A stretch of DNA of 64,000 nt from Deltaproteobacteria bacterium (GTDB taxonomy: Bacteria > Desulfobacterota > Deferrisomatia > Deferrisomatales > BM512): assembly GCA_030591565.1 (NCBI GenBank), contig JAUVAU010000002.1, forward strand, positions 12,856 to 76,855. The letters run 5' to 3'. Both the position numbers and the translations under genes were made by a program. A model generated the notes under the pieces. It ran no database searches. It was not told the origin of the DNA and saw only the letters and a program-made list of their open reading frames with translations. Shown here piece after piece: positions 6,293 through 30,621 of the stretch (its first letter is position 1; each line of letters begins with the position of its first letter).

Positions 6293-6302
6293 TTTTGACC
6301 GG

Positions 6303-6331: not shown

Positions 6332-6388
6332 CGCTTCAGGGCCAAGGTGTTGTCATTGGCGCTGTGCTAACTCTTTTGAAAGCGAAAA

Positions 6389-6826: not shown

Positions 6827-6841
6827 AAGGGAGAAATTGTG

Positions 6842-10313: not shown

Positions 10314-10559
10314 CTAGCGACTGTTGAAAAACCCCGGATATCCTCCGATTGACGTTGTCAGGGGCGAAAAATGATCCTCGAAATACTTATCGGTATGCCT
10401 GCGGTCATTTTTCTTCCCTTCCTAGCCCTCGAAGGATCTTCGGGGTTTCCAGTTTATCGTCGGCTTACCTGGAGGTTTACCCGACATCGGCTAAAATCTC
10501 CGGTTAGCCTGGTTTAGCGTTACTCCCCCGCTTCGGGAGAGTTTTTCAACAAGCTCCTA
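10314..10559 (+). mobile_element. MITE-like non-autonomous repeat, copy A
   Basis: Near-identical over its first ~130 nt to 58706-58936, and to the reverse complement of 57549-57853. Terminal inverted repeats (C)TGTTGAAAAAC...GTTTTTCAACA(AGCT). It fills the thiL/meaB convergent intergenic gap and has no coding capacity. Confidence 0.7.
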
Positions 10560-11504
10560 CATGTCTACCTTCAGGTGTTCCATCAAGGTCTCCGCTGCGC
10601 TGTAGGGGTCGGTTTCCCGCTTCTTGAGGGCCTCGGTAAGCATGGCGTATTTCTTCGCCCCACCCGCCGCAGTGTTAATCTTTTCGTAGGCCATTTCCTT
10701 TACAAGCTCTTTAAAGAAGTGGAGTTCGCGCTCCTCGACACGGGTGTCGAGAATTCCCGTTGACACCAGATGGTCGCGGTGCTCAAGGAATGCGTCCACC
10801 AACTCGATGATCCCCTCGGATTTTGAGGCGATAGTCTTCAGTACCGGGGGAGTCCAGTTGGTCGCGGAGTAGTCGCGCATCTCAAGCATTACCTGTAGCT
10901 GCCGGACCACATCGTCGGAACCGACCCTGTCCGCCTTGTTGACGATGAAGATGTCACCAATTTCTAGTATCCCGGCCTTCATTGCCTGAATATCGTCGCC
11001 CATTCCGGGCAGGCTGACCACCGCCGTGGTGTGAGCCAAATCTACTATCTCCACCTCATCCTGCCCGACGCCGACCGTCTCCACCAGAACAATGTCGTAG
11101 CCCATTGCGTCCAAGACCAGGGCTGCCTGAAAGGTGGCTCTGGAAAGCCCCCCAAGGTGTCCACGGGTCGCCATCGAGCGCACAAAGACGCCTTCATCGG
11201 TGGCGTGGCGCTGCATGCGCACCCGGTCGCCGAGAATGGCCCCGCCGGAAAAGGGGCTGGAGGGGTCGATGGCGATCACGCCGACTTTTTTGCCCCGGCC
11301 CCGAAACTCGGTGATGATCCTGTCCACGAGGGTGGATTTACCCGCACCCGGAGGGCCGGTGATGCCGATCATGAACGCCTGTCCTGCGTGGGGGTAGATC
11401 TTTTTCAGACCCTCGATGCCCGCAGGGTCGCCCTCTTCCAAAAGTCTTATCAGCCGCGCGCCAGCCAGCACGCTGCCGTTCAATGCTTCCTGTGCGTAAT
11501 CCAT
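10557..11504 (-). CDS. meaB: MeaB/ArgK-type G-protein chaperone of B12-dependent acyl-CoA mutase
   Basis: P-loop GPPGAGKSTL, the ..VETVGVGQ.E switch motif and NKAD specificity motif. It lies immediately downstream of the mutase subunits. Confidence 0.9.
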   Translation of the reverse strand: MDYAQEALNGSVLAGARLIRLLEEGDPAGIEGLKKIYPHAGQAFMIGITGPPGAGKSTLVDRIITEFRGRGKKVGVIAIDPSSPFSGGAILGDRVRMQRHATDEGVFVRSMATRGHLGGLSRATFQAALVLDAMGYDIVLVETVGVGQDEVEIVDLAHTTAVVSLPGMGDDIQAMKAGILEIGDIFIVNKADRVGSDDVVRQLQVMLEMRDYSATNWTPPVLKTIASKSEGIIELVDAFLEHRDHLVSTGILDTRVEERELHFFKELVKEMAYEKINTAAGGAKKYAMLTEALKKRETDPYSAAETLMEHLKVDM

Positions 11505-11516
11505 TCCAAGCCTTTT

Positions 11517-11906
11517 CTAGCCGATAATTTCTTTGATCTTTGCAAGGATCTCGTCCAGGGGAGTTCCGGGTCGGAAGAGCGCCTTCACGCCCTTTTCCAT
11601 CAGGGGCGGTATATCATCCTCGGGGATGGTGCCGCCGCCGAAAACCGGAATCTCGCCGATTCCCTTGGCCTTCATCAACTCCACCACCTCGGTGAAAACG
11701 TAGTTGTGGGAACCGGAAAGCACCGAGATGCCCACCGCGTCCACTGCTTCCTGGAGCGCAGAGGTGACGATCTGCTCCGGCGTCTGGTGCAGCCCGGTGT
11801 AGACGACCTCGAAGCCGGACTCCTGTAAAAATTTTGCAATTACCTTTGCGCCCCGGTCGTGGCCGTCAAGGCCGGGTTTTGCAATAAGGACTCTGTACTT
11901 TTTCAT
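11517..11906 (-). CDS. icmB: Acyl-CoA mutase small subunit, cobalamin-binding domain (IcmB-like)
   Basis: B12-binding signature KPGLDGHDRGAKVIA (DxHxxG), ..GISVLSGSH.. The 129-aa size matches the separate small subunit of split mutases. Confidence 0.8.
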   Translation of the reverse strand: MKKYRVLIAKPGLDGHDRGAKVIAKFLQESGFEVVYTGLHQTPEQIVTSALQEAVDAVGISVLSGSHNYVFTEVVELMKAKGIGEIPVFGGGTIPEDDIPPLMEKGVKALFRPGTPLDEILAKIKEIIG

Positions 11907-11927
11907 GAGGTTAAATCCGTCAAAAGT

Positions 11928-13604
11928 TTAGAAGACCGCAGGGTCTTCGTAGGCTCCGTAAACAGCTACTATCGACTGGCATATCTCGCCGAGCAGCGCA
12001 TATTCGCGTACCGCCTCCAAAATCGGCTCCATGAGATTATCGCCTGAGCGGGCCGTGTCGCGGATGCGGTCAAGGCACGCATCGACCTTGGCGTTGTCGC
12101 GATTGAGTTTGGTGTCCTCTATGCGCTCAATCTGGCGGCGCTCTACTTCGTCATCCACCTTGAGGAGGGGGATGGGAGACTCTTTTTCCGCAATGTACTT
12201 ATTGACGCCTACTATGACCTCTTCGCCTGTCTCGACCGATTTTTGATACTCCATCGAAGCACGCATGATCTCGCTCTGTGGGTAGCCCGCATCCACCGCG
12301 GCAACCATTCCGCCCAGATCGTCGATCTTCTGGATATACTCAACCGCCGCCTGCTCCATCGCGTCGGTGAGCGCCTCCACATGGTAGGAACCGGCCAGGG
12401 GATCAATCGTGTTCGCTACCCCGGTCTCGTTGGCGAGTATCTGCTGGGTGCGCAGCGCGACGGTGACCGCCTCCTCGGTGGGAAGGGCCTCGGCCTCGTC
12501 AAAGGAGTTGGTGTGCAGGCTCTGGGTTCCGCCAAGGACCGCTGAGAGCGCCTCGTAGCCGGTGCGGACGATATTATTCAGCGGCTGCTGGGCGGTGAGG
12601 CTGCACCCCGCTGTCTGCGTGTGGAATCTGAGCCACATCGATTTCGGGTTCTTCGCGCCAAACCGCTCCTTCATGATCTTTGCCCACAGCCGTCTGGCCG
12701 CCCTGAACTTCGCGATTTCCTCAAAGAAGTCCATGTGCGCATCGAAGAAGAAGGAGAGATGGGGGGCAAAAGAGTCCACATCCATCCCGCGCTCAATGGC
12801 CGCCTCAACATAGGCGATGCCGTCGGCCAGGGTGAAGGCCAGCTCTTGCTGCGCGGTGGAGCCGGCCTCGCGGATGTGGTAGCCGGAGATGGAGACGGGA
12901 TGCCATTGGGGCACGTTCTTGGCGCAAAACTCCATGGTGTCCACCAGCAGCTTCACGCTCTCGCGCGGCGGCCAGATGTAGGACTTTTGTGCGAAGAATT
13001 CCTTTAAGGGATCATTCTGGATGGTGCCACCGACCTTATCCCAGCTTACCCCCTGCTTCTCGGCCACGGTCAGGTACATCGCCAGCAGCGCCGGCGCCGG
13101 GTGGTTCACCGTCATTGAGGTGGTCACCTTGTCCAGCGGGATGCCGTCGAAGAGAATCTCCATGTCGCGCAGCGAGTCGATGGCGACGCCGCACTTGCCC
13201 ACCTCGCCCCGCGCCAGTTGGTGGTCGGAGTTCACACCCTTCAGCGTGGGGAAGTGGAAGGCGACGCTGAGTCCCGTTTGTCCGTTTGCCAGCAGATATT
13301 TATAGCGCTGATTGGTCTCCTCGGCGGAACCAAAACCTGAGAACTGGCGCATCGTCCAGAAGCGGCCCCGGTACATCGTGCTCTGCACGCCACGGGTAAA
13401 GGGGTATTCACCGGGGAAGCCGAGGTTCTTTTCATAATCGAAATCGGGGAGGTCTGTGGGAGTGTAGAGCCGCTTGATATCCAGGCCGGAGAGGCTCTGG
13501 AACTCCTCTTTGCGCTCGGGCCGTTTTTTCAGCCCCGCCTCGGTTTCACTCTCCCAGGCGGCGCTTTTCTGCTTAAGTTGGTCTCTCTTCATTTTATCGC
13601 TCAT
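11928..13604 (-). CDS. icmA: Acyl-CoA mutase large (substrate-binding TIM barrel) subunit with isobutyryl-CoA-mutase-type specificity residues (IcmA-like)
   Basis: Aligns throughout with the methylmalonyl-CoA mutase catalytic domain (..FTRG...[53 protein letters not shown]..). Positions equivalent to MCM Tyr89/Arg207 are Phe88 (codon 13341-13343) and Gln206 (12987-12989). Confidence 0.8.
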
Positions 13605-13695
13605 CCGTGCGCTTTTCCCGACCCCGTTTCAATATGGGCTCAAGTATCGAAGTGTTTTAGTCTGAGTGCGAAAAATAACATAGCGTCGGTTGCCC

Positions 13696-14841
13696 TTAGC
13701 TCGCGCCGAGGACCCCACGGGAGATTACGATCCGCTGAACCTCGCTGGTGCCCTCGTAGAGGGTGACGGCCATCGCGTCGCGCATACATCTCTCAACCGG
13801 GTACTCGCTAACGTAACCGTAGCCGCCGTGAATCTGGATCGCCTCGCGGGTGACTCGCTGCACCATCTCGGTGGAGTAGAGTTTGGCCTTCGAGGCTTCC
13901 TGGGTGTAGTTGCGTCCCGCCTCCTTGGTCGCTGCGGCGCGAAGGGTGAGCAGGGTGGCAGCTTCGAGCTGGGTCGACATGTCGGCCAACTTGAACTGGA
14001 TCGCCTGAAAGCTGGAGATCGGCCTGCCAAACTGCTTGCGGTTTTTAGCGTACTCCGCCGAGGTTTCCAGCGCAGCTCTTGCCAGTCCGCAGGAGTTCGA
14101 CGCGATGCCGATCCTGCCGCCGTCGAGCGCCGAGAGCATTATGCGAAAGCCATCGCCGGGCTGACCAAGTATCGAATCGGATCCCACCCGGCAATCCTCA
14201 AGGATCAGTTCAACGGTGTCCGAGCCGCGCTGGCCCATCTTTTCTTCTTTTCTTCCCACGCGCAAGCCAGGGTTGTCGGCCTCCACGAGAAAGACGCTGA
14301 TGCCACGCTTGCCCGCTTCCTTGTCGCTCCTGGCGGCTATCAGGGTAACGCCTGCGTAGCTGCCTGAAGTGATGAATATCTTGGCGCCGTTAAGTATCCA
14401 GCCGTCACCATCTTGCTCGGCGGTGGCCTTCAGGCTGCCGGCGTCGGAGCCGGCCCCCGACTCGGTGAGCGCGAAGGCTCCGGCAACGTACTCGCCGGAT
14501 GTAAAGCGCGGGATGTGTTTTTCGATCTGCCCGGGGGTGCCGAACCTGTAGATCGTCTCACACACCATATTGGTGACCGAGGTGGTTACCGCGTGGCTCA
14601 TGCAGGCGCGGCCAATCTCCATCAACGCCAGCGAGTAGGCTACCGCGCCCATGCCGGTACCACCGGCCTCATCGGGGACGAGCATGCTCATCAGCCCCAG
14701 GTCGGCCATATGCCCAAGGGTCTCCTTGGGAAAGGTGGAGGTGCGGTCGGTCTCGGCGGCGATGGGGAGGATTTCGTTTTCCGCGAAACGCCTCACCATG
14801 TCGCGAACCATGCGCTGGTCTTCGGTAAATGCAAAATTCAT
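13696..14841 (-). CDS. Acyl-CoA dehydrogenase (short/branched-chain type)
   Basis: 381 aa, full-length ACAD pattern (..FALTE.GAGSD.. , ..GG.G.. , ..YEGTSE.Q..). It starts 15 nt downstream of the NapC/NirT-like cytochrome gene. Confidence 0.9.
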   Translation of the reverse strand: MNFAFTEDQRMVRDMVRRFAENEILPIAAETDRTSTFPKETLGHMADLGLMSMLVPDEAGGTGMGAVAYSLALMEIGRACMSHAVTTSVTNMVCETIYRFGTPGQIEKHIPRFTSGEYVAGAFALTESGAGSDAGSLKATAEQDGDGWILNGAKIFITSGSYAGVTLIAARSDKEAGKRGISVFLVEADNPGLRVGRKEEKMGQRGSDTVELILEDCRVGSDSILGQPGDGFRIMLSALDGGRIGIASNSCGLARAALETSAEYAKNRKQFGRPISSFQAIQFKLADMSTQLEAATLLTLRAAATKEAGRNYTQEASKAKLYSTEMVQRVTREAIQIHGGYGYVSEYPVERCMRDAMAVTLYEGTSEVQRIVISRGVLGAS

Positions 14842-14856: not shown

Positions 14857-15471
14857 TTACAAAATCTTGCCGCTGTCGGTGAGCATCTGGTAATGACATT
14901 TCTGACAACGGTCGCGGTTACGTTCTTTCTGGTGGCACTCGCTGACAAAGCAGCTGTACATGGGCGGCCTGTTGGTCTGCTCCTCCGCCTTGTCGTGGGC
15001 GATATTGAAGTGGCAGTCCACGCAACCCAGGTTCACTTCAAGCCCCGATTGCTCGATGGGGGCTGCGAGGTGGGCCTTGTGGTTGATCTTGATAAGCTTC
15101 GACAGCTCTTTTTCAGAGCTGGCGATGTTGTTGTGACACTCGGTGCAGCGCTCTTCAGTGCGCTCGGTGGTCGCCATGTATTTTTCCGGGATGAAGGTAT
15201 CCCTGATGAAGGCGAGCACGTTGGGCGACGCCTTCAGCTCGGGATGGCCCGCGTGGCACTCGTGACAGGTCACCTGCTCGGCGGGGTGGTTCAGGCTGGA
15301 CTTCCACATATCCGTGATTACCGGGTGGCAGCTCGCGCATTGGGCCGGAGCGGTATTGATATAGCGTGCGCCCGTGATGAAGAGGACCACGCCGACCACG
15401 GCGAAGACCACTATCAGCCCCGCGATTCCTGCGCCGCTAAGACCTTTTATACGATCAATAAAAAATTGCAT
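14857..15471 (-). CDS. Membrane-anchored NapC/NirT/NrfH-type multihaem cytochrome c (5 CxxCH plus one possible CX4CH)
   Basis: N-terminal TM helix (GIAGLIVVFAVVGVVLFITG). Haem motifs CASCH, CHECH, CTECH, CVDCH, CQKCH, plus CFVSECH. Confidence 0.8.
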   Translation of the reverse strand: MQFFIDRIKGLSGAGIAGLIVVFAVVGVVLFITGARYINTAPAQCASCHPVITDMWKSSLNHPAEQVTCHECHAGHPELKASPNVLAFIRDTFIPEKYMATTERTEERCTECHNNIASSEKELSKLIKINHKAHLAAPIEQSGLEVNLGCVDCHFNIAHDKAEEQTNRPPMYSCFVSECHQKERNRDRCQKCHYQMLTDSGKIL

Positions 15472-15492
15472 CGCTTGTTTCCAGGCTCCTAA

Positions 15493-16392
15493 TTAGAGAA
15501 GCGGTATGAATTCCCCGCCAAGCACCACATTAAGGCGCATGGTCATAATGCCGATCATAACCAGCAGGGCGGCGAAGCCGTAGACCGGCACGCTCCTGAT
15601 CGGCTTTGCAGTAATCAATATGAGCGGAAAAACCTTGCCCATGAGAGTTTCCAGCACAAGAAAGAATGGTGCGAAGGCGCCAAAGAGCAACAGGCTGGCT
15701 ACCTCATGGGACTCGGCCTCGCCAAAATAGTGCACCCCGATATCCGAGAGGCTAAGGAACAGATCAAACACCAGCAGCCAGGTCAGCATCTTTCCCAGCC
15801 CTTCCAGCAGCTCAAAATTCACCTCGCCCGATTTAGTGAAGAGCTTGTCCCTTATTATCGTGACAAGAATCATCATCGCCACGCCGCTCACCAGCGCGGA
15901 GGTCAGGAAGAGGATCGGCATCATTGAAGAGCGCCACAGCGCGTGGGCCTTGGCGAAGCTCAAAATAAAGCCGGTGTAGCCGTGGACCATAAGCGCCAGC
16001 GGAATGCCTATCAGTCCGAACAGCTTGGTGCGGACCGCGTTTCCCTTGAACATGAAGTAGCCGTATATGATGCAGTTGACGGGGTAGAGGGTGAGCAGGA
16101 ACGTACCCCAGGAGATCGGGCTCGTGCCGTTGAGATAGATGAACAGGTGCCACGCCCGAAGCGGTCTGCCCGAGTGGATCAGCAGGAACATCGGGGCGAT
16201 CATAAGCAGGACAGTGGCAATCACCACGCCGATCTTGCCCAGCGGCTTGTATTTCTCGAAGCCGAATCCGTAGGCCAGGGTCGAGATAATGAAGGAGCCC
16301 GCGCTTAGCCCTGTCAGGTAGAAGTAGATGGCGATCGCGACGCCGAACGACTCTGCCTTGGGCACGGTATAGAGCAGAACAGATTCCATCAT
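15493..16392 (-). CDS. NrfD/PsrC/DsrP-family polytopic membrane subunit
   Basis: 299 aa, about 8 predicted TM segments, with the family-typical ..YFYLTGLSAGSF.. and ..SGRPLRAWH....GTSPISWG.. motifs. The start abuts the ferredoxin gene stop (0-nt gap). Confidence 0.85.
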   Translation of the reverse strand: MMESVLLYTVPKAESFGVAIAIYFYLTGLSAGSFIISTLAYGFGFEKYKPLGKIGVVIATVLLMIAPMFLLIHSGRPLRAWHLFIYLNGTSPISWGTFLLTLYPVNCIIYGYFMFKGNAVRTKLFGLIGIPLALMVHGYTGFILSFAKAHALWRSSMMPILFLTSALVSGVAMMILVTIIRDKLFTKSGEVNFELLEGLGKMLTWLLVFDLFLSLSDIGVHYFGEAESHEVASLLLFGAFAPFFLVLETLMGKVFPLILITAKPIRSVPVYGFAALLVMIGIMTMRLNVVLGGEFIPLL

Positions 16393-16989
16393 TTACAAAT
16401 GTCCTCCGTCCACGTCGACATGGCGGGCAGCCTCGTCATCGAAGCCTATGTAAAAAGTCTGGGGTTTGTTGCCCGACTCCGGTTTCATCACCACCGCCGA
16501 TTCACGCGCAAGGATTCTCGCTATCTGGCTCTTGGGGTCGGCCAGGTCGCCAAACATCATCGCGCCGGTTGGGCAGTTGGTGGCGCACACCGGCGGTCCG
16601 TGGCCTTCTCGCACGCGGGGCCAGCACCAATCGCACTTTTCAGCCACCTTGCGAGTGGGGTGGATGAATCTCACGGAGTAGGGGCAGGCCGCCATGCAGT
16701 AGCCGCAGCCGATGCAGCGGTGGGGGTCGATGTAGACGATCCCGTTGTCCATCGAATAGGTGGCCTCAACCGGGCACACCTGAGTACACGCGGGTCGCTC
16801 GCACTGGTTGCAAAAGATCGGGAAGAAGTGGTCCCTTACGTTTGGGTAAGTGCCCTTTTCCACCTGCTTGACCCAGGTGCGGTACACACCGAGCGGCACA
16901 TCGTTTTCAACCTTGCACGCCACCTGACAGGTGCGGCACCCGATGCATTTACGCAAGTCGATCAAAAAGCCGTAACGTGTTCGGCTCAT
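16393..16989 (-). CDS. Four-cluster [4Fe-4S] ferredoxin subunit (NrfC/DsrO/HmcB/PsrB type), no recognisable signal peptide
   Basis: Cys groups CIGCRTCQVAC, CNQCERPACTQVCP, CIGCGYCMAACP, CDWC...CATNCP. The N-terminus MSRTRYGFLIDLRKCIGC runs straight into the first cluster with no twin-arginine leader. Confidence 0.9.
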   Translation of the reverse strand: MSRTRYGFLIDLRKCIGCRTCQVACKVENDVPLGVYRTWVKQVEKGTYPNVRDHFFPIFCNQCERPACTQVCPVEATYSMDNGIVYIDPHRCIGCGYCMAACPYSVRFIHPTRKVAEKCDWCWPRVREGHGPPVCATNCPTGAMMFGDLADPKSQIARILARESAVVMKPESGNKPQTFYIGFDDEAARHVDVDGGHL

Positions 16990-17013
16990 ATCAGCGTTTC
17001 CTTCTTTACGGTG

Positions 17014-17991
17014 CTAGCCATCGGCGTCCTCACGACGGTAGAGCGTAGTGAACCCTATAAAGAGGGCCAAGAGACCGAGCGCTGCGCCGCCTCCCCAGAT
17101 GAGGAAGGTGTACAGAGTTGCGGTGACTGTGGAGGGCCCATCTTCAAAGCCACCCTTCAAGTGAAACTTGTCGGAGCGTTCCTGGTCGACCTTCAGCTCC
17201 GGCCTGTGGCAGTCGGGGCAGTTGTCGCCGGTAACGTTCTCTTCCGCGTGAGCGCCCTGGCCCTGGTGGCATGCCAGACAGCGCTCGGAGGCATACTGGG
17301 TTGAGGCGTCGCCCTTGCCGTGTCCGCTGATTCTCCAGCCCGCAAGCACGCCTCCGATTCCTGAGGAGCTGACCTGCTCCACGTGGCAGCGCCCACAGGT
17401 TTTGGCGATATTGTCCGGGTTGACCGATGACGCGGGGTCTTCGGCCTTCAGGACGTAATGGGCGGTGTGGCAGTCGGAGCAAAATGGTGCGTCCGGGTTG
17501 CCATGTTCCCATTCCCAGGCGTGGGAGGTGTTCATCCAGACCTCGCCGGTGCGCGCTTCATTCGGCGGTGGCTTGATGCCCTTTTCTTTCAACTTTTTCA
17601 GCGCATCGACGGGAAACAACCCCTCGGTTTTGCGAGAGGAGTGGCAGGCCCTGCAATCGGCGTTGGGGTAGCCTTCACGCGGATGGACGTTGGGGTTTGC
17701 GTTCTGGTGGCAATCGATGCACTCGATCCCTTTTTTGCCGTGGACCGATAATACGTAGCGTTTTAAATCAATGTGCAGATCCACGGTGCGTCCGAGGGCA
17801 GTGCCCGCCATCGTGCCCTCTTCGCCGTGGCAATTTTTAAGACACTTATCGTTGGTGTAGGGCTCTTCGATGTGTTCGCGCTCGATGAAGTCGGGCACCT
17901 TCTCTTTGGCTGCGTAGCTTTGCGATATCCCAACCACCAGCAGAGCGGTGAGGCTGGCCGCCATGAATGTGCATGCTTTGGCCCGGATCAT
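17014..17991 (-). CDS. Heptahaem c-type cytochrome with N-terminal signal peptide and C-terminal TM anchor
   Basis: MIRAKACTFMAASLTALLVVGISQSYA|AKEK. Seven CxxCH motifs (CLKNCH, CIDCH, CRACH, CSDCH, CGRCH, CLACH, CPDCH). C-terminal helix LYTFLIWGGGAALGLLALFIGFTTLY. ATG 17991 overlaps the upstream stop (ATGA). The ORF extension to 18096 is rejected. Confidence 0.85.
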   Translation of the reverse strand: MIRAKACTFMAASLTALLVVGISQSYAAKEKVPDFIEREHIEEPYTNDKCLKNCHGEEGTMAGTALGRTVDLHIDLKRYVLSVHGKKGIECIDCHQNANPNVHPREGYPNADCRACHSSRKTEGLFPVDALKKLKEKGIKPPPNEARTGEVWMNTSHAWEWEHGNPDAPFCSDCHTAHYVLKAEDPASSVNPDNIAKTCGRCHVEQVSSSGIGGVLAGWRISGHGKGDASTQYASERCLACHQGQGAHAEENVTGDNCPDCHRPELKVDQERSDKFHLKGGFEDGPSTVTATLYTFLIWGGGAALGLLALFIGFTTLYRREDADG

Positions 17992-19934
17992 ACCAGCGCC
18001 CTTTCGATTATCTCCGCGATGTCGAGTACCTTGAACTCCTCTTCCTTGCCTGCGGCCTTCACGCCGTCGTCCAGCATCGTCAGGCAAAAGGGGCACGCCG
18101 ACGCGATGGTGTCGGCCCCGGTGGACATCGCTTCATCAGCACGTTTGTTGTTTATGCGCTCGCCCTCCTCCTCCATCCACATCCTGCCGCCACCGGCTCC
18201 ACAGCAAAAACTGTCTTCGCCGTGGCGCTCCATCTCGGTCAGCTCAAGCCCGCCGACCGAACCGAGCAGGTTGCGGGGCTCAGCCGTTATTCCAGCGTAG
18301 CGTGACAGGTAGCACGAATCGTGCAGAGTGACGTTCTGGGGCATCTCGCGGCTGAGGCGTATGCGGTGTTTGTCAACAAGGTCCAGGAGGTAGTCGCTGT
18401 GGTGGACGACCTCGAAGTTGCCGCCGAACTGCGGATACTCCTTGGAGATCGATTTAAGGCAATGGGGGCAGGGGGCGATGATCTTGGTCACGCCCAGCGC
18501 ATTCATCGTCGCGATGTTTTCCTCGGCCAGCGTCTGGTAGAGGTACTCGTTGCCGGTCGAACGTGCGGGGTCGCCGCAGCATTTTTCCGCCTCACCGAGT
18601 ACTCCGAAGCTGATGCCGGCGTGGTCGAGGATTTTCACTAAAGAGGCTATGACCCGCTGGTAACGATCATCGAAGCTGCCCGCGCAGCCGACCCAGAGGA
18701 GCAGATCGAATTCTGGTTTTTCTTCCTTGGTGAGGATTCTGGGGTGGATGTTTCTCCGCCGCATCCAGTCGTTGCGCTCGGACCAGCCCACGCCCCAGGG
18801 GTTGAAGTTGTTCTCGATATTCTTATTGAGCGCGATCAGCTCATTGGGCATCTGGCCTTCCATCAGGACCAAGTGCCTGCGCATATCCACGATCTTGTCC
18901 ACGTGCTCGATCTGCATGGGGCAAACCTCCATGCAGTGGCGGCAAGTGGTGCAGCTCCAGATATCTTCTTCGCCCACGCCGGAGCCGCCTATCATCGGGT
19001 CGGGGTAGCTCTCTGCCTTGCCCTTGCGAATGTATGGCGCTTTTCCGGTGAGGTTGGTGCGAAGATCTTGAATTACCTTTTTGGGATTGAGCGTCTTGCC
19101 GGTGCTGTAAGCGGGGCACTTGGCCTGGCAGCGGCCACAGCGCACGCACGCCTCAAGGTCCAGCAGCTGCTTCCAGGTGAAGTTTTCAACCTCACCCACG
19201 CCGAATATCTCGGAGTTCTCAATGTCGATCTTGGTGAATGCGCCCTTGGGGCCGCGGTTGGCGAGCGCGATGTTCGCCGGGCCGAGGAGGACATGGGATA
19301 ATTTGCCGTAGGGCAAGGACGCCAGGGCGAAGAGCACGATGTAGATGTGCACGCGCCACACCACACCCAGGAGATCGGCGGCGGTGTCGGTGCTCATTAC
19401 CTTTAGCGGCAAGCCAACGACCAGGCCCACGGGAGTCAGTATGTCGGATACCGATGCCGAGGTCGCGATGCGTAGCGCCTCGGTGCCAAAGCCGGTAAGG
19501 AAGATGGCGTAGAGGACCACGTAGACCCAGCCGTCTTCAATCTTGTTGTCCAGCTCTTCGGGTTTTTCACGATAGCGGCGCAGCAACAACTTTGTCGTCG
19601 CCCAGACGCCGGCAATCGCAATTGCTTCCAGCGCCAGTGTCGTAAGGCCGGAAAATAAAGAGGGTAGACGTATGCCGAATTGGATGAGGAAGACCACCAG
19701 GAGCGGCACGGTGAAGGCAAGAAACAGCAGGTAGTGATGGGTGCCGTGGGGCTCTTCACGACGTACCCTGGCGTGACCGAAGACGGCCTTGAAGGTCTCC
19801 AAAACCCTGTCGGAAAATCCGTCGAGACGGTTGTCCGGGGTTCCCAACCAAATCAAGCGTGCTTTTCGCAACACCCCTACGGCGAAAACGGCCGCCGCGA
19901 TCAAAACCAGGGCGAAATCAAATGTATTTGCCAT
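17988..19934 (-). CDS. Fusion of NarI/DsrM-like membrane (haem-b type) domain with HdrD/DsrK-like Fe-S/CCG domain (membrane-bound Fe-S oxidoreductase)
   Basis: N-terminal ~230 aa has 5-6 TM helices and conserved His (HGTHHYLLF, WRVHIYIV, GKLSHVL). Then CVRCGRCQAKCP and CTTCRHCMEVCP, and two CCG domains (VGC..EKCCGDP..CPHC; DSC..SFCCGAGG..CPFC). Confidence 0.85.
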   Translation of the reverse strand: MANTFDFALVLIAAAVFAVGVLRKARLIWLGTPDNRLDGFSDRVLETFKAVFGHARVRREEPHGTHHYLLFLAFTVPLLVVFLIQFGIRLPSLFSGLTTLALEAIAIAGVWATTKLLLRRYREKPEELDNKIEDGWVYVVLYAIFLTGFGTEALRIATSASVSDILTPVGLVVGLPLKVMSTDTAADLLGVVWRVHIYIVLFALASLPYGKLSHVLLGPANIALANRGPKGAFTKIDIENSEIFGVGEVENFTWKQLLDLEACVRCGRCQAKCPAYSTGKTLNPKKVIQDLRTNLTGKAPYIRKGKAESYPDPMIGGSGVGEEDIWSCTTCRHCMEVCPMQIEHVDKIVDMRRHLVLMEGQMPNELIALNKNIENNFNPWGVGWSERNDWMRRRNIHPRILTKEEKPEFDLLLWVGCAGSFDDRYQRVIASLVKILDHAGISFGVLGEAEKCCGDPARSTGNEYLYQTLAEENIATMNALGVTKIIAPCPHCLKSISKEYPQFGGNFEVVHHSDYLLDLVDKHRIRLSREMPQNVTLHDSCYLSRYAGITAEPRNLLGSVGGLELTEMERHGEDSFCCGAGGGRMWMEEEGERINNKRADEAMSTGADTIASACPFCLTMLDDGVKAAGKEEEFKVLDIAEIIERALV

Positions 19935-20087
19935 ATGCCTTTTCCGGGCTTATCTGAACCTGTTGGAGCAACTGGTCGGTCTATGAAACAAAATCGGGAA
20001 ACGAAACCGGGAAACCGGATTGAACATTTAAGCACAAAACACCTTCGTGCCGAAAGGGTAAACGCCTTTAAATCGATTGCATTCAGA

Positions 20088-21233
20088 CTAGTCTTTCAGC
20101 AGGGAGCGCGCGATGACCATTTTCTGGATTTCGCTTGTCCCTTCGTAGATCTCGGTAATCTTGGCGTCGCGGTAAAAACGCTCCACCGGGTACTCGTCGA
20201 TGTAGCCGTAGCCGCCAAAAACCTGTATCGCTTCACGTGTGACCTTCATCGCCACATCCGAGGCGAAGAGCTTTGCCGTGGCCGACTGGGTGCCATAGCT
20301 CCTGACGCCCTGATCCTTCATCCACGCTGCCCGGTAGGTGAGCAATCTGGCCGCATCAATCTCGGTTGCCATATCGGCGAGCTTCCACTGGATTGCTTGG
20401 AATGCGCCGATCGGCTTGCCGAACTGAACTCGCTCCTTGGCGTATTCAACTGCCGCGTCCATGGCGCCCTGGGCGATGCCAAGGGCCTGGGCCGCGATGC
20501 CGATCCTGCCGCCATCCAGCGTTGCCAGGGCAATCTTGAACCCCTCTCCCGGTTTGCCCAAAATGTTTTCCCTGGGGATGCGGCACTCGTCGAAGACAAG
20601 CTCCGCCGTGGAGCTGGCCCTGATGCCAAGCTTGTGCTCCTCCTTGGCGACCTTGTAGCCCGGTGCGTCGGAGGGGACTATGAAGGCGGACATGCCGTGT
20701 GTTCCCGCTTCCTTGTCGGTCATGGCGATGATAACCGCCACACCGGCGGGGCCGCCGTTGGTGATGAATATTTTGGAGCCGTTAAGAACCCACTCGTCGC
20801 CGTCGAGAACCGCAGTGGTCTTCTGGTTGCCTGCGTCCGAGCCTGCCTGATTCTCGGTCAGCCCCAGACAGCCCAGCACCTTGCCGCTGCAAAGCCCGGG
20901 GAGGAATTTCTTTTTCTGCTCCTCGGTCCCGAACTTGTAGATAGGATCGCAGCAGAGGCTGGAATGGGCCGAGACCACCACGCCGGTGGAGGCGCAGACG
21001 GTCGATAGCTCCTCGACGACGATCGCGTAGCACTGGTAGTCCATGCCACCGCCGCCGTATTCATCCGGGAAGGCGGCGCCCATGAATCCGAGCTCGCCCA
21101 TCTTGTCCACCAGCTCCATCTGGAACTTGGCGTCCTTGTCCATCTGGGCCGCCAGCGGAGCGACCTCTTCTCTGGCAAACTTGCGCACGGTGTCGCGCAC
21201 CATCTTCTGAATGTCGTTCAGTTCAAAATCCAT
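20088..21233 (-). CDS. Acyl-CoA dehydrogenase (butyryl-CoA dehydrogenase-like)
   Basis: 381 aa, full-length ACAD (..LGLTE..AGSDAG.., ..GGYGY..EYPVERFYRDAKITEIYEGTSEIQ..). Confidence 0.9.
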   Translation of the reverse strand: MDFELNDIQKMVRDTVRKFAREEVAPLAAQMDKDAKFQMELVDKMGELGFMGAAFPDEYGGGGMDYQCYAIVVEELSTVCASTGVVVSAHSSLCCDPIYKFGTEEQKKKFLPGLCSGKVLGCLGLTENQAGSDAGNQKTTAVLDGDEWVLNGSKIFITNGGPAGVAVIIAMTDKEAGTHGMSAFIVPSDAPGYKVAKEEHKLGIRASSTAELVFDECRIPRENILGKPGEGFKIALATLDGGRIGIAAQALGIAQGAMDAAVEYAKERVQFGKPIGAFQAIQWKLADMATEIDAARLLTYRAAWMKDQGVRSYGTQSATAKLFASDVAMKVTREAIQVFGGYGYIDEYPVERFYRDAKITEIYEGTSEIQKMVIARSLLKD

Positions 21234-21247
21234 TGGCTACCACCTGA

Positions 21248-22114
21248 CTATTCGTAAGTGTAAAACCCGCGTCCCGATTTCTGCCCCAGATAACCTGCGT
21301 CCACCATCTTTTTAAGAAGCGGGCAGGCTCGGTATTTGGAGTCCTTGAAGCCATCGTGGAGGACTTCCATGATGTAGAGGCACACATCCAGGCCGATCAG
21401 ATCGGCCAGCGCCAGGGGGCCCATGGGATGGGCCATGCCAAGCTTCATCACGTTGTCGATCGCCTCGGGGGTGGCGACGCCTTCGTAGAGGCAGTAGACC
21501 GCTTCGTTTATCATCGGGAGCAGAATGCGGTTGGAGACGAAACCGGGAGAGTCCTCGGCCTTGACCGGGATCTTGCCCAGCTGCTCGGTGGTTTTTTTCA
21601 CCAGCTCGTAGGTCTCGGGCGAGGTCTGAAGGCCGGTGATTACCTCAACGAGCTTCATCACCGGTACCGGGTTCATAAAATGCATACCAATCACCGACTC
21701 GGGGCGCTTGGTGACGGCGGCGATCTTCGTGATGGATATCGAAGAGGTGTTGGTGGCGAGTATCGCCCCGTCTCTGATCGCCGCGTCCATCTCTTCAAAT
21801 ATCTTGGCTTTGATCTCCGGGTTCTCGGTGGCGGCCTCCACGGCCAGATCGCAGTCGGCCATATCGGCAATGGCCGTAGTGGTCGTTATTCGCGCCAGCG
21901 CCGCGTCTTTATCCTCTTCGCTCATGCGTCCCTTGGTGACCGAGCGCTCCAGATTCTTGCCGATACGCCCAAAACCATTCTGGACGAACTCTTCGGTGAT
22001 ATCTCTTAGCACCACCTCAAAGCCGGAGACGGCGAAGACTTGCGCTATCCCGTGGCCCATCTGTCCGGCGCCGATGACGCCGACTTTTTTGATTTCCATA
22101 ACTAGCTCCTCCAA
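21248..22114 (-). CDS. hbd: 3-hydroxybutyryl-CoA dehydrogenase
   Basis: Rossmann motif VGVIGAGQMGHGIAQV, ..IATNTSS.SIT.., ..GMHFMNPVP.M.LVE... , ..PGF..NR.L.P.. The start may be the internal Met at 22099. Confidence 0.9.
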   Translation of the reverse strand: MEELVMEIKKVGVIGAGQMGHGIAQVFAVSGFEVVLRDITEEFVQNGFGRIGKNLERSVTKGRMSEEDKDAALARITTTTAIADMADCDLAVEAATENPEIKAKIFEEMDAAIRDGAILATNTSSISITKIAAVTKRPESVIGMHFMNPVPVMKLVEVITGLQTSPETYELVKKTTEQLGKIPVKAEDSPGFVSNRILLPMINEAVYCLYEGVATPEAIDNVMKLGMAHPMGPLALADLIGLDVCLYIMEVLHDGFKDSKYRACPLLKKMVDAGYLGQKSGRGFYTYE

Positions 22115-22135
22115 ATTGAATGGGAAAATGTCTCT

Positions 22136-23320
22136 TTAACGCTCTACTACCATGGCGACCGCGCCGCCGCCGCCAAGGCAAAGGGTCGCGAGGCCGAGCT
22201 TTTCGCCACGTGCCTTCATGGCATATAGCAAGGTCGTCAGGATGCGGGCGCCGGAAGCCCCGACGGGGTGACCAAGGGCGATGGCTCCGCCGTTGACGTT
22301 TACACGTGACCAGTCCCAGCCCAGTTCCCTGCCGTCGGCCAGACATTGGGAGGCAAACGCCTCGTTGGCTTCGATCAGGCCGAAGTCATCGATCTTGCGG
22401 TTGCCGAGCTCCATCACCCGCCGGACTGCGTCGATGGGGGCGAAGAAGACATCCTTGGGCTCCCTGTGGGCGGAGGCGTACTCTTTTATTGAGGCGAGTA
22501 TTTCAAGGCCCTTGGCCTCGGCGATTTCCCGTGTCGTCACCACTACAGCGCTGGCGCCGTCGGTCAGCCCCGGCGCGTTACCGGCTGTGACCATGCCATC
22601 TTTTTGGAAGGCCGGGCGCAACTTTGCGAGGACCTCCACGGTGGAGTTGGGCTTGATGGCTTCATCCTCGGTCACGGTAATCGGGTCGCCCCTTCGCTGG
22701 GGGACCTGGACGGGGACGATCTCGTCTTTAAACTTGCCGGTTTCGGTGGCCTCTCCTGCTTTTCTCTGGCTGTCGGCTGCGAACCGGTCCAGCTCCTCGC
22801 GGGTCAGTCCGGCTTTCTCCGCCGTGTATTCCGCAAGGTTGCCCATGTGTACATCATTAAACGCGCACCAGAGGCCATCGTGAATGAGCGCATCTTCCGC
22901 CTGGAAGCCGCCCAGCTTGACGCCGCCCCGAAGGTTGCGCATGAGGTGGGGTGCGCTCGACATCGCCTCCATGCCGCCTGCGACTATCACCTGCGCGTCT
23001 CCTGCCTTTATCGCCTGGACGGCCAGCATGACCGCTTTCAGGCCGGAGCCGCAAACCTTGTTGATGGTGAAGGAGTTGGTGGTCGCCGGCAAACCGCCCT
23101 TGATCGCGGCCTGGCGGGCGGGGTTTTGCCCCTGACCTGCCGGGACCACATTGCCCATTATGCATTCGTCCACTTCGTCGGGTGAAATGCCAGAGCGCTT
23201 TACGGCCTCGGCCACCGCGAATCCGCCCAGATCACTTGCGCTAAAGTTGCCGAATACTCCAAGATAGCCGCCGATGGGGGTACGGCAGGCGGATACGATT
23301 ACCGGTTCGTTTCTGCTCAT
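22136..23320 (-). CDS. Acetyl-CoA C-acetyltransferase (thiolase II)
   Basis: Active-site contexts ..INKVCGSGLKAV.. (Cys nucleophile), ..NVNGGAIALGHPVGASG.. and ..LCLGGGGAVAM.. ; 394 aa. Confidence 0.92.
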   Translation of the reverse strand: MSRNEPVIVSACRTPIGGYLGVFGNFSASDLGGFAVAEAVKRSGISPDEVDECIMGNVVPAGQGQNPARQAAIKGGLPATTNSFTINKVCGSGLKAVMLAVQAIKAGDAQVIVAGGMEAMSSAPHLMRNLRGGVKLGGFQAEDALIHDGLWCAFNDVHMGNLAEYTAEKAGLTREELDRFAADSQRKAGEATETGKFKDEIVPVQVPQRRGDPITVTEDEAIKPNSTVEVLAKLRPAFQKDGMVTAGNAPGLTDGASAVVVTTREIAEAKGLEILASIKEYASAHREPKDVFFAPIDAVRRVMELGNRKIDDFGLIEANEAFASQCLADGRELGWDWSRVNVNGGAIALGHPVGASGARILTTLLYAMKARGEKLGLATLCLGGGGAVAMVVER

Positions 23321-30554: not shown

Positions 30555-30621
30555 AAGGTACTCACTCGGTTTTCAGCCCAAGAAAAGAGTATGCAATCGA
30601 CTTTCAAAGCCCAATGTTTTG

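What the first reader, a model, noticed from the sequence alone, without database searches (positions are those of the whole stretch)
14857..19934. DsrMKJOP/Hmc-type transmembrane redox module embedded in a butyryl/isobutyryl-CoA oxidation operon (no etfAB in view)
Five consecutive minus-strand genes are packed with a 4-nt overlap and 24-, 0- and 21-nt gaps. (1) 17988-19934 is a single 648-aa protein fusing a His-rich 5-6-TM NarI/DsrM-like domain to an HdrD/DsrK-like domain (two Cx2Cx2Cx3CP clusters and two CCG domains). (2) 17014-17991 is a Sec-exported heptahaem cytochrome c with a C-terminal TM anchor. (3) 16393-16989 is a four-cluster ferredoxin. (4) 15493-16392 is an NrfD/DsrP-type membrane subunit. 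(5) 14857-15471 is a membrane-anchored NapC/NirT-like cytochrome with 5-6 haems. The order M-K-J-O-P is the canonical dsrMKJOP order, and the parts list matches the Hmc/Tmc/Nhc/Qrc/Cbc families. Here, however, the module is flanked by acyl-CoA dehydrogenases (one starts 15 nt downstream, one ends 153 nt upstream), hbd, thiolase and an isobutyryl-CoA-mutase set. No sulfite reductase, hydrogenase, formate dehydrogenase or etfAB is in the window. MK-type fusion proteins are known next to etfAB/acd genes in syntrophic fatty-acid oxidisers as proposed ETF:menaquinone oxidoreductases. Coupling one translationally to a 12-13-haem periplasmic module is not something I can match to a described complex. 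One hypothesis is a dedicated route carrying electrons from acyl-CoA dehydrogenation across the membrane to periplasmic cytochromes, for extracellular or syntrophic electron disposal. An alternative is a redox loop for reverse electron transport at the energetically difficult butyryl-CoA/crotonyl-CoA step.
Basis: partly seen in the sequence, partly recalled or inferred. Interest (0 to 1): 0.78.

Follow-up and report, generated by a model that had tools for sequence, protein, structure and literature searches.

The report
ETF oxidase wired to periplasmic cytochromes
Inside a butyrate/isobutyrate-oxidation operon sits a five-gene membrane module in which the known enzyme that collects fatty-acid electrons (EMO/EtfD) is joined to two multihaem cytochromes and an iron-sulfur/NrfD quinone unit, a conserved combination I could not find described and a likely new route for those electrons across the membrane.

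Summary
The 648-aa "MK fusion" is a member of the EMO/EtfD family (ETF:menaquinone oxidoreductase; PDB 9OJN, E 1.8e-111). It is followed by a Sec-exported, C-terminally anchored heptahaem cytochrome, a PsrB-like four-cluster protein with no signal peptide, an 8-TM NrfD protein and an NrfH-like hexahaem cytochrome.

The same module is conserved in the Deferrisoma lineage and related MAGs. There it lies in a 17-gene operon: regulator-thl-hbd-crt-acd-etfBA-EMO-cyt-FeS-NrfD-Mo-like-cyt-acd-icmAB-meaB. The window is a reduced variant that lacks the regulator, crt, etfBA and the Tat-exported molybdopterin-like subunit. It is still under purifying selection (dN/dS 0.12-0.23).

Cytochrome-linked EMOs form two pure clades: 21 of 21 loci inside them have the cytochrome, 0 of 107 outside. 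They keep the three haem-b histidines. They lack the proposed quinone-protonating His of Syntrophus EMO, have a shortened periplasmic loop, and carry a signature Asp.

My best reading is an architecture like DsrMKJOP run in reverse: ETF to EMO haems b, to periplasmic haems c, to FeS/NrfD and the menaquinone or cytochrome pool. I found no published description. I rate it a new variant of a known kind.

The parts
17988..19934 (-). EMO/EtfD-type subunit (648 aa). It has an N-terminal NarI/HdrE-like 5-TM haem-b domain with ligand His at H67, H196 and H214. Two cubane [4Fe-4S] motifs follow (C263-C273P, C328-C338P), then two complete CCG/non-cubane motifs (C417...CC452/453...C489xxC492; C541...CC577/578...C614xxC617). 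D6 is the signature Asp of cytochrome-linked EMOs.
   Evidence: PDB 9OJN EtfD E=1.8e-111. His ligands and SaEMO-numbered comparison.
17014..17991 (-). Periplasmic heptahaem cytochrome c (325 aa). It has a Sec signal peptide (MIRAKAC...SYA/AK), one CX3CH and 6 CxxCH motifs, 7 further invariant His, and a C-terminal TM anchor (about residues 296-314). Its start codon overlaps the EMO stop by 4 nt.
   Evidence: It always lies directly downstream of this EMO type.
16393..16989 (-). Four-[4Fe-4S] PsrB/NrfC/DsrO-like protein (198 aa, 16 Cys), with no signal peptide.
   Evidence: PDB PsrB 2VPW_B E=1.5e-53 over the full length. N-termini are the same in all relatives.
15493..16392 (-). NrfD/PsrC-type cofactor-free quinone-interacting membrane subunit (299 aa, 8 predicted TM). 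The positive-inside count puts the N and C termini in the periplasm.
   Evidence: Pfam NrfD 145 bits.
14857..15471 (-). NrfH/NapC-like membrane-anchored cytochrome c (204 aa). It has one N-terminal TM helix, 5 CxxCH and one CX4CH (CFVSECH), all invariant in relatives, so six haems.
   Evidence: PDB NrfH 2J7A_C E=1.2e-5. Alignment.
19935..20087 (-). 153-nt intergenic gap between acd and EMO. In the full operon of relatives this position holds etfB and etfA. It contains one weak terminator-like hairpin, not above chance.
   Evidence: The same etf-less junction occurs in L002 and L162.
15472..15492 (-). 21-nt junction between NrfD and the NrfH-like cytochrome. In relatives a gene of 720-760 aa for a Tat-exported molybdopterin-like subunit sits here.
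   Evidence: The same Mo-less junction occurs in L164 and L165.
20088..23320 (-). Upstream beta-oxidation genes: acetyl-CoA acetyltransferase (22136-23320), 3-hydroxyacyl-CoA dehydrogenase (21248-22114) and acyl-CoA dehydrogenase (20088-21233).
10557..14841 (-). Downstream genes: a second acyl-CoA dehydrogenase (13696-14841), an acyl-CoA mutase large subunit with the isobutyryl-CoA-mutase signature residues (11928-13604), the B12-binding small subunit (11517-11906) and the MeaB GTPase (10557-11504).

Best explanation
The five genes encode one membrane-spanning electron-transfer complex built around an EMO/EtfD-type subunit.

Shown:
- The 648-aa protein is an EMO homologue with every cofactor ligand intact.
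- Its close relatives sit directly after etfBA and acyl-CoA dehydrogenase genes.
- This EMO subtype is always followed by a membrane-anchored periplasmic multihaem cytochrome, often with overlapping stop and start codons.
- In this lineage it is also followed by a PsrB-like FeS protein, an NrfD quinone subunit and an NrfH-like cytochrome.

Inferred mechanism:
1. Reduced ETF, made by the two flanking acyl-CoA dehydrogenases, docks on the cytoplasmic CCG (non-cubane cluster) domain. In this genome ETF must be encoded outside the window.
2. Electrons pass through four FeS clusters to the proximal and distal haems b.
3. In Syntrophus EMO the distal haem reduces quinone. This subtype lacks the proposed quinone-protonating His, has a shortened TM II-III loop and has lost the periplasmic N-terminal extension, so I infer that electrons instead go to the heptahaem cytochrome docked on the periplasmic face.
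4. From there they go to the FeS protein and the NrfD quinone site, reducing menaquinone with protons taken from the periplasm. That would be DsrMKJOP run backwards: it spends proton-motive force on the uphill ETF-to-menaquinone step.
5. Alternatively or additionally, electrons go through the NrfH-like hexahaem cytochrome into the periplasmic cytochrome pool that feeds terminal acceptors.

The window carries a reduced version of the operon. How its signal-less FeS subunit reaches the periplasm without the Tat-bearing molybdopterin-like partner is unresolved. That partner may be encoded elsewhere, as ETF and crotonase must be.
For: - EMO identity: PDB 9OJN E=1.8e-111; Pfam CCG x2 and Fer4; three conserved haem His in all 21 cytochrome-linked EMOs.
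- ETF link: etfB-etfA lie immediately upstream in L004, L005, L006, L008, L010, L163 and L166, and in most stand-alone EMO loci.
- Specific partnership with the cytochrome: 21 of 21 loci in two pure clades against 0 of 107 outside. 4-nt or 1-nt overlaps occur in the window, L162, L166, L076, L083 and L019. The cytochrome accompanies EMO even where NrfCD is absent (L083-85, L089, L009). Orthologues of the cytochrome were found only in this context.
- Altered periplasmic face of EMO: H or D at the SaEMO H109 column in 0 of 21 against 58 of 107. The A101 column is deleted in 17 of 21 against 1 of 107. The TM II-IV stretch is 85-87 aa against a median of 94. The N-terminal REIFWN-type motif occurs in 0 of 21 against 36 of 107. 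Asp at window position 6 occurs in 17 of 21 against 0 of 107.
- Precedent: in the DsrMKJOP cryo-EM structure, DsrM contacts DsrJ on its periplasmic face. DsrM lacks quinol-oxidation features, the active quinol site is in DsrP, and electrons run P-O-J-M-K.
- Energetics: the uphill ETF-to-(methyl)menaquinone step and the pmf-driven reverse loop are described for SaEMO.
- The reduced module is maintained: dN/dS is 0.12-0.23 for EMO, cytochrome, NrfD and the NrfH-like protein against relatives that share the same deletions, and all haem and FeS ligands are intact.
Against: - No protein-protein contact has been tested; AlphaFold-Multimer was not available.
- The quinone-site residues E22 and H109 come from a docking model in a preprint, and my mapping rests on a MAFFT alignment with a metagenomic SaEMO-numbered proxy (L086).
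- The clade-specific Asp6 lies only 2-3 residues from the E22 column. It could serve as a proton donor, so a quinone site at EMO is not excluded.
- The FeS subunit has no signal peptide, and the window has no Tat-bearing partner. A periplasmic location of the FeS protein in this organism is therefore unproven.
- ETF genes are absent from the window.
- A weak terminator-like hairpin lies between acd and EMO.
- In L001 and L007 the six-gene module occurs without beta-oxidation genes, so the module is not obligatorily tied to this pathway.
- The direction of electron flow is inferred from thermodynamics only.
Confidence: 0.55

Rival explanations
1. Quinone-bypassing export. ETF electrons cross the membrane through EMO haems b into the heptahaem cytochrome and leave directly through periplasmic cytochromes to Fe(III), sulfur or a syntrophic partner. 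The NrfCD and NrfH-like units act only as a side-gate to the menaquinone pool.
For: EMO plus cytochrome occurs alone, without NrfCD, in L083-85, L089 and L009. The proposed quinone-site His is absent. The cultured relatives belong to the genus Deferrisoma, which from my own knowledge are Fe(III)/S0 reducers. There are 13 c-type haems in two membrane-anchored cytochromes.
Against: In the Deferrisoma clade two quinone-interacting subunit types (NrfD and NrfH-like) are strictly conserved in the module, which argues that quinone chemistry is part of the function. No outer-membrane conduit genes are in the window.
Confidence: 0.25
2. Two independent enzymes that are merely co-transcribed. EMO alone reduces menaquinone as in Syntrophus or Mycobacterium. 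The cytochrome/FeS/NrfD/NrfH-like genes encode a separate Qrc/ACIII-like quinol:cytochrome c oxidoreductase that re-oxidises the quinol.
For: Stand-alone EMOs are the rule (107 of 128 assessable loci). The FeS, NrfD and Mo-like trio resembles PsrABC and Qrc. Asp6 might replace E22 as a proton donor.
Against: The cytochrome tracks EMO, not NrfCD. Stop and start codons overlap. Cytochrome-linked EMOs are distinct clades with a remodelled periplasmic face.
Confidence: 0.15
3. The window copy is a decaying remnant. Having lost etfBA, crt, the regulator and the Tat-exported subunit, the module no longer functions.
For: Five genes of the ancestral 17-gene operon are missing, with no remnants. The FeS subunit has no route to the periplasm encoded in the window.
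Against: dN/dS is 0.12-0.23 against relatives sharing each deletion. All ORFs are intact with all cofactor ligands. The same junctions occur in other assemblies.
Confidence: 0.05

Closest known systems
EMO / EtfD (ETF:(methyl)menaquinone oxidoreductase; Syntrophus aciditrophicus SYN_02638, M. smegmatis EtfD PDB 9OJN)
   Same: Single polypeptide with a NarI/HdrE-like haem-b membrane domain, two cubane clusters and two CCG/non-cubane motifs. The three haem-ligand His are conserved. It sits with acd genes, and with etfBA in relatives.
   Different: Described EMOs act alone and reduce quinone themselves. Here the gene is translationally coupled to a periplasmic heptahaem cytochrome plus FeS, NrfD and NrfH-like subunits. 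The SaEMO H109 and E22 equivalents and the periplasmic N-terminal extension are missing, the TM II-III loop is shorter, and a signature Asp is present. There is no etfAB in the window.
DsrMKJOP (sulfate/sulfite respiration complex)
   Same: Same gene order and architecture: haem-b membrane protein, CCG iron-sulfur protein, periplasmic cytochrome c, four-cluster FeS protein, NrfD-type protein. The structure shows M contacting J and an active quinol site in P.
   Different: M and K are fused, and they are EMO-type rather than Dsr-type (DsrK model 66 bits against a cut-off of 400). The cytochrome has 7 bis-His haems, not the 3 of DsrJ with one His/Cys haem. DsrO and DsrP models score below their cut-offs. 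No dsrAB or dsrC is present. The substrate is presumably ETF and the flow presumably reversed. An extra NrfH-like cytochrome is present.
QrcABCD / alternative complex III / PsrABC (NrfD-anchored periplasmic modules)
   Same: In relatives, a multihaem cytochrome, a Tat-exported molybdopterin-like subunit, a signal-less four-cluster protein and an NrfD subunit. The FeS protein is most similar to PsrB, and the Mo-like subunit to PsrA/PhsA and QrcB about equally.
   Different: All equivalog models score far below their cut-offs. The window lacks the molybdopterin-like subunit altogether. The module is joined to an EMO and to beta-oxidation genes.
HmcABCDEF / TmcABCD
   Same: They combine periplasmic multihaem cytochromes, an NrfC/NrfD pair (Hmc), a cytochrome b and a cytoplasmic CCG protein into one transmembrane conduit.
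   Different: HmcB, HmcC, HmcF and TmcB models score far below their cut-offs. There is no 16-haem HmcA. The cytoplasmic partner differs.

Membership tests
EMO / EtfD | Full-length sequence similarity to a structurally characterised member | tested here: met
   9OJN_A E=1.8e-111; two stretches cover residues 36-645
EMO / EtfD | NarI-like membrane domain with the three conserved haem-ligand His (SaEMO H87, H233, H251) | tested here: met
   Window H67, H196 and H214 align to them, with the same 18-residue H-H spacing. Pfam Nitrate_red_gam is only 21.4 bits against a cut-off of 22.9.
EMO / EtfD | Two cubane Cx2Cx2Cx3CP motifs and two CCG (non-cubane cluster) motifs | tested here: met
   (CCG 132.9 bits, two stretches)
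EMO / EtfD | Genomic association with etfAB | tested here: not met
   No etfAB in the 64 kb. It is met in close relatives L004, L010, L163 and L166.
EMO / EtfD | Quinone site at the distal haem (SaEMO E22 and H109 as proposed proton donors) | tested here: not met
   Window has N/T and G at these columns. H or D at the H109 column occurs in 0 of 21 cytochrome-linked EMOs. The test is alignment-based, and Asp6 lies nearby.
EMO / EtfD | ETF-dependent quinone reductase activity | not testable with these tools
   Needs biochemistry
DsrMKJOP | Subunits reach the NCBIfam equivalog cut-offs (DsrK, DsrO, DsrP) | tested here: not met
   DsrK 66 against 400, DsrO 174 against 200, DsrP 73 against 350
DsrMKJOP | Trihaem DsrJ with a His/Cys-ligated haem; dsrAB and dsrC in the genome | tested here: not met
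   The cytochrome has 7 haem motifs and 7 invariant distal His. The Pfam survey of the ORFs of 180 aa or more flanking the module found no sulfite-reductase domain; no DsrAB or DsrC model was run, so this is an annotation survey and not a targeted search.
DsrMKJOP | Gene order and architecture M-K-J-O-P | tested here: met
   (architecture only)
Hmc / Tmc | HmcB, HmcC, HmcF or TmcB equivalog scores | tested here: not met
   85 against 420, 26 against 550, 57 against 750, 81 against 735
QrcABCD | QrcB-like molybdopterin-family subunit with Tat signal, plus QrcC and QrcD | tested here: not met
   No such gene in the window. QrcC 116 against 400 and QrcD 43 against 570. The relatives' subunit scores 126-145 against 440.
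PsrABC-type | PsrB-like four-cluster subunit without its own signal peptide, on an 8-TM PsrC/NrfD anchor | tested here: met
   2VPW_B E=1.5e-53; NrfD 145 bits with 8 TM
PsrABC-type | Catalytic Tat-exported molybdopterin subunit | tested here: not met
   Absent from the window. The relatives have one with the FS0 Cys motif but no invariant Cys or Ser in the Mo-ligand region, as read by eye.
NrfH / NapC / CymA quinol dehydrogenases | N-terminal TM helix plus a tetrahaem domain; equivalog score | tested here: inconclusive
   TM helix and similarity to NrfH (2J7A_C E=1.2e-5; Pfam 31 bits against a cut-off of 24). But TIGR03153 scores 31 against 134, and the protein has six haem motifs.

The most novel reading that the evidence does not exclude
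A subfamily of EMO/EtfD has given up its own quinone site and become an ETF:cytochrome c transmembrane oxidoreductase. Its distal haem b hands electrons to a dedicated periplasmic heptahaem cytochrome. Beta-oxidation would then be wired directly into the periplasmic cytochrome network of metal- and sulfur-respiring bacteria. A Qrc/Dsr-like FeS-NrfD unit would act as a pmf-coupled gate to the menaquinone pool.
Probability: 0.3. Interest if true: 0.8.

Novelty: new variant of a known kind. Interest (0 to 1): 0.66.

Why it matters
How electrons from acyl-CoA dehydrogenation (about -10 mV) enter anaerobic respiratory chains based on low-potential menaquinone is a long-standing energetic problem. 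For syntrophs it was answered only recently, by the stand-alone EMO and its twin-haem reverse redox loop.

This locus suggests that metal- and sulfur-respiring Desulfobacterota (the Deferrisoma lineage and others) use a different hardware solution. An EMO is joined to periplasmic cytochromes and an NrfD quinone module, which amounts to the DsrMKJOP architecture with ETF in place of DsrC.

Cultured carriers exist (Deferrisoma camini and D. palaeochoriense), and structures of both parent systems appeared in 2026. The hypothesis is therefore directly testable by purification, cryo-EM and growth-substrate proteomics. It would also extend the known modularity of HdrDE-like and NrfD-like respiratory building blocks.

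Tried and rejected
1. Membership in Dsr, Hmc, Tmc, Qrc or Ttr: rejected, because all NCBIfam equivalogs score below their cut-offs.
It was useful for the stand-alone versus cytochrome-linked comparison but added no close-clade loci.
3. Exact-sequence look-ups of P0001 and P0006 found nothing on record, so the rest of the source contig could not be read.
4. AlphaFold2 model of the heptahaem cytochrome: mean pLDDT 69.9. Foldseek against the PDB gave no match with E below 0.6 (best was MtrA, not significant), so nothing was learned about its fold.
5. PDB sequence search with the NrfD protein: no hit at E ≤ 0.01.
6. Monophyly of all cytochrome-linked EMOs: not supported in a midpoint-rooted NJ tree. 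They form two separate pure clades of 14 and 7; the best single bipartition contains only 14 of the 21.
7. CxxCH motifs inside EMO of L083: these lie within FeS motifs and are not haem c sites.
8. Promoter and terminator scan: counts are no higher than in shuffled sequence. There is one weak hairpin between acd and EMO.
9. Rfam and tRNA scans of the window: nothing, and in particular no cobalamin riboswitch near the mutase or cobQ genes.
10. Ten literature searches found no description of EMO with cytochrome/NrfCD partners. The library misses most subscription-journal papers, so absence is not proof.

Full report
OBSERVATION. They are 17988-19934 (648 aa), 17014-17991 (325 aa from the ATG that gives a signal peptide), 16393-16989 (198 aa), 15493-16392 (299 aa) and 14857-15471 (204 aa). 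The spacing is a 4-nt overlap, then gaps of 24, 0 and 21 nt. Translations and profile searches confirm each assignment.
- The 648-aa protein has a hydrophobic, His-bearing N-terminal domain (weak NarI match: 21.4 bits against a cut-off of 22.9). It also has two Cx2Cx2Cx3CP motifs and two CCG domains (132.9 bits).
- The 198-aa protein is a 16-Cys Fer4_11 protein.
- The 299-aa protein is an NrfD protein (145 bits).
- The 204-aa protein is weakly NapC/NrfH-like.
The flanks are as stated: thiolase, hbd and acd upstream; acd, a split acyl-CoA mutase and MeaB downstream. The mutase carries RQF...FAQKSYI, that is Phe and Gln where methylmalonyl-CoA mutases have Tyr and Arg. From my own knowledge of the family, this is the isobutyryl-CoA mutase signature.

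REFINEMENTS OF THE OBSERVATION.
(i) The heptahaem protein has six CxxCH motifs and one CX3CH. In an alignment of 22 orthologues all seven motifs are invariant, and so are exactly seven further His residues. Seven bis-His haems is therefore well supported. It has a Sec-type signal peptide and a C-terminal TM helix.
(ii) The last cytochrome has five CxxCH motifs plus an invariant CX4CH, making six haems, behind one N-terminal TM helix. Its only PDB relative by sequence is NrfH (E 1.2e-5).
(iii) The FeS protein starts 14 residues before its first cluster motif, and the ORF cannot be extended upstream. It has no signal peptide. In this it resembles its best structural relative, PsrB (2VPW_B, E 1.5e-53), which from established knowledge of Psr and Dms-type enzymes is exported by hitch-hiking on a Tat-signal partner.
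(iv) The NrfD protein has eight predicted helices. Its Lys/Arg distribution (12 in odd loops, 5 in even loops) puts both termini in the periplasm.

WHAT THE FUSION IS. Against the PDB the 648-aa protein matches M. smegmatis EtfD (9OJN) at E 1.8e-111 over residues 36-645. EtfD/EMO is the ETF:(methyl)menaquinone oxidoreductase. Two 2026 structure papers describe it as a five-TM NarI/HdrE-like haem-b domain fused to HdrC-like and HdrB-like (non-cubane cluster) domains, with ETF docking on the cytoplasmic side. Its His ligands (SaEMO H87, H233, H251) correspond to H67, H196 and H214 of the window protein. Dsr, Hmc and Tmc equivalog models score far below their cut-offs. The 'MK fusion' is therefore an EMO, not a DsrMK.

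RELATIVES AND CONTEXT. The protein search shows two tiers. About 40 sequences are 57-67% identical, and thousands are at or below 47%. The close tier includes Deferrisoma camini (WP_169709634.1), D. palaeochoriense, and Deferrisomatales or 'Deltaproteobacteria' MAGs, some from hydrothermal vents. Every close-tier locus long enough to judge has the cytochrome, FeS and NrfD genes after EMO.

Six loci (L004, L010, L163, L166, L006, L168) show one conserved operon, in whole or in the part their contigs reach. In order it contains an HTH-cupin regulator, thl, hbd, crt, acd, etfB, etfA, EMO, the heptahaem cytochrome, FeS, NrfD, a 720-760-aa molybdopterin-family protein with a twin-arginine signal, the NrfH-like cytochrome, acd, icmA, icmB and meaB. 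The molybdopterin-family protein is equally distant from PsrA/PhsA and QrcB, and is below all cut-offs. It keeps the FS0 cysteines. By my reading of the alignment it has no invariant Cys or Ser where a Mo ligand would be. It may therefore be a QrcB/ActB-like scaffold; this is inference. In L001 and L007 the same six-gene module stands without beta-oxidation genes.

THE WINDOW IS A REDUCED VARIANT. Compared with that operon, the window lacks the regulator, crt, etfB, etfA and the molybdopterin-like gene. tblastn finds no remnant anywhere in the 64 kb. The deletions are clean. They are shared by other assemblies.
- The acd-EMO junction, with a gap of about 160 nt, recurs in L002 and L162. These two are nearly identical to each other, and their EMO is 66-67% identical to the window's.
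- The junction of NrfD with the NrfH-like cytochrome recurs in L164 (12-nt gap) and in L165, where it was read only from a frame translation.
Against these relatives dN/dS is 0.12-0.23 for EMO, the cytochrome, NrfD and the NrfH-like protein. dS is 1.2-1.8, near saturation, so these are rough values. The reduced module is therefore maintained by selection and is not an assembly artefact. ETF and crotonase are indispensable to the pathway, so they must be encoded elsewhere. The Tat-bearing partner of the FeS protein may be as well. Otherwise the location of the FeS protein in this organism is unexplained.

A DISTINCT, CYTOCHROME-LINKED EMO SUBTYPE. I examined 169 fetched loci. In 128 the downstream region could be judged. 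Of these, 21 have a multihaem ORF (four or more CxxCH; signal peptide and C-terminal anchor where examined) directly after EMO. In a neighbour-joining tree they form two pure clades of 14 and 7. None of the 107 other loci has such a gene. The partner set varies:
- cytochrome only (L083-85, L089, L009);
- cytochrome, a tetrahaem NrfH-like protein, a Tat-NrfC and NrfD (L019);
- the Deferrisoma-type set (also L076).
The constant element is thus EMO plus the cytochrome, often with overlapping stop and start codons (window, L162, L166, L076, L083, L019).

I used L086 as a proxy for SaEMO numbering, because its H87, H233, H251, E22, H109, A101 and E187 all fall at the published positions. Mapped onto it, all 21 cytochrome-linked EMOs keep the three haem His. 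The other positions differ:

| Feature | Cytochrome-linked | Others |
|---|---|---|
| H or D at the H109 column | 0 of 21 | 58 of 107 |
| E or H at the E22 column | 0 of 21 | 38 of 107 |
| A101 column deleted | 17 of 21 | 1 of 107 |
| Length of the TM II-IV stretch | 85-87 aa | median 94 aa |
| Periplasmic N-terminal 'REIFWN'-type motif | 0 of 21 | 36 of 107 |
| Asp at window position 6 (periplasmic end of TM I) | 17 of 21 | 0 of 107 |

In SaEMO, E22 and H109 are the proposed proton donors to methylmenaquinone, and the TM II-III region covers the distal twin haem. The periplasmic face of this subtype is thus remodelled exactly where SaEMO handles quinone. One caveat is that those roles come from a docking model. 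The other is that Asp6 lies only 2-3 residues from the E22 column and might substitute for it.

MECHANISM. The closest architectural precedent is DsrMKJOP. Its 2026 cryo-EM structure shows DsrM touching the cytochrome DsrJ on the periplasmic side, and DsrO contributing a haem ligand. DsrM lacks quinol-oxidation features, and the active quinol site is in DsrP. Electrons run P to O to J to M to K, with protons released to the periplasm.

Here the K-like domain belongs to an ETF acceptor. The step from ETF to menaquinone is uphill: butyryl-CoA/crotonyl-CoA is about -10 mV and methylmenaquinone is -156 mV. The simplest reading is therefore the same wire run backwards:
1. ETF donates to the FeS clusters of EMO.
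2. Electrons pass to haems b.
3. They pass to the heptahaem cytochrome.
4. They pass to the four-cluster protein.
5. They reach the NrfD quinone site, where protons are taken up from the periplasm.
This would spend proton-motive force just as the stand-alone Syntrophus enzyme is proposed to do with its twin haem. The NrfH-like hexahaem cytochrome would link the complex to the quinol pool or to the periplasmic cytochrome pool.

What is shown: the identities of the parts, their conservation and co-location, the etfBA adjacency in relatives, and the remodelled EMO face. What is inferred: physical contact between the subunits, the order of carriers, the direction of flow, and the pmf coupling.

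RIVALS.
(a) Electrons leave through cytochromes without passing the quinone pool. The cytochrome-only variants favour this. The strict conservation of two quinone-type subunits in this clade argues against it being the whole story.
(b) EMO and the cytochrome/NrfCD unit are separate enzymes. The clade-specific pairing, the overlapping codons and the altered EMO face argue against this.
(c) The window copy is a relic. The dN/dS values and the intact ligands argue against this.

COMPARISON AND NOVELTY. The locus is a member of the EMO/EtfD family by sequence and cofactor motifs. It fails the membership tests for Dsr, Hmc, Tmc and Qrc. It resembles Psr/Qrc in its FeS-NrfD core. Ten full-text searches retrieved papers, and I read the two EMO structure papers, the enoyl-CoA respiration paper, the NrfD review and the Desulfuromonadia cytochrome survey. 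None yielded a description of an EMO joined to cytochromes or NrfCD. The library is incomplete, so prior description elsewhere cannot be excluded. I rate it a new variant of a known kind: known building blocks (EMO, NrfCD, NrfH) in an undescribed and conserved combination, with a recognisable sequence signature.

VERDICT. Interest is 0.66. The finding is specific, conserved, present in cultured organisms, and speaks to a current question in anaerobic bioenergetics. The mechanism remains inferred, and the window itself shows only a trimmed version whose FeS topology is unresolved.

Noticed in passing
window 27599-34894 (minus strand): A type IV pilus gene set lies next to the operon. In order it is pilB-like (33080-34894), pilT-like (31895-33028), pilC-like (30622-31824), a PilS-type kinase (28968-30554) and a sigma-54 PilR-type regulator (27599-28981). 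From memory this is the order seen in Geobacter. No pilin ORF follows pilR; instead there is a 416-aa protein with no Pfam hit at E ≤ 1e-5 (26174-27424).
   Followed up: partly
window 23679-24464 (minus strand): A secreted ankyrin-repeat protein sits directly upstream of the thiolase gene. Relatives carry an HTH-cupin regulator at this position (L163 3384-3968, L166 1108-1686). The regulator is absent from the window.
   Followed up: partly
window 11928-13604: The large mutase subunit has Phe and Gln (RQFSGFG, FAQKSYI) at the two substrate-specificity positions. This fits isobutyryl-CoA mutase and not methylmalonyl-CoA mutase. NCBIfam only places it in the general acyl-CoA mutase subfamily.
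   Followed up: partly
L001 10001-17215 and L007: The six-gene module (EMO, cytochrome, FeS, NrfD, Mo-like, cytochrome) also occurs without any beta-oxidation or etf genes. It lies between a TetR regulator and an ADP-forming acetyl-CoA synthetase-like gene. The module is therefore portable between contexts.
   Followed up: no
L092 (metagenome), upstream of EMO at about 9842: A distant stand-alone-type EMO has molybdopterin, NrfC and NrfD homologues upstream, but no cytochrome downstream. This may be another way of pairing EMO with an NrfD module.
   Followed up: no
L019 12838-15284: In a distant cytochrome-linked locus, the NrfC homologue carries its own twin-arginine signal (RRDFLKTGG) and a tetrahaem NrfH-like gene precedes it. 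No molybdopterin subunit is present. Export of the FeS protein is thus solved differently in different lineages.
   Followed up: partly
L030 and L033 (Desulfosporosinus), about 4500-8000 and 16700-20800: Repeated pairs of a long NrfC-like ORF and a shorter EMO-like (CCG) ORF flank the full-length EMO gene.
   Followed up: no
window 41842-43647 (minus strand): A tungsten-type aldehyde:ferredoxin oxidoreductase (AFOR_N and AFOR_C, 437 bits) lies next to a class II aldolase gene. It is unrelated to the module.
   Followed up: no
window 24674-26173: A cobyric acid synthase (CobQ-type) gene lies a few kb upstream of the B12-dependent mutase operon. No cobalamin riboswitch was detected anywhere in the window by Rfam.
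   Followed up: partly
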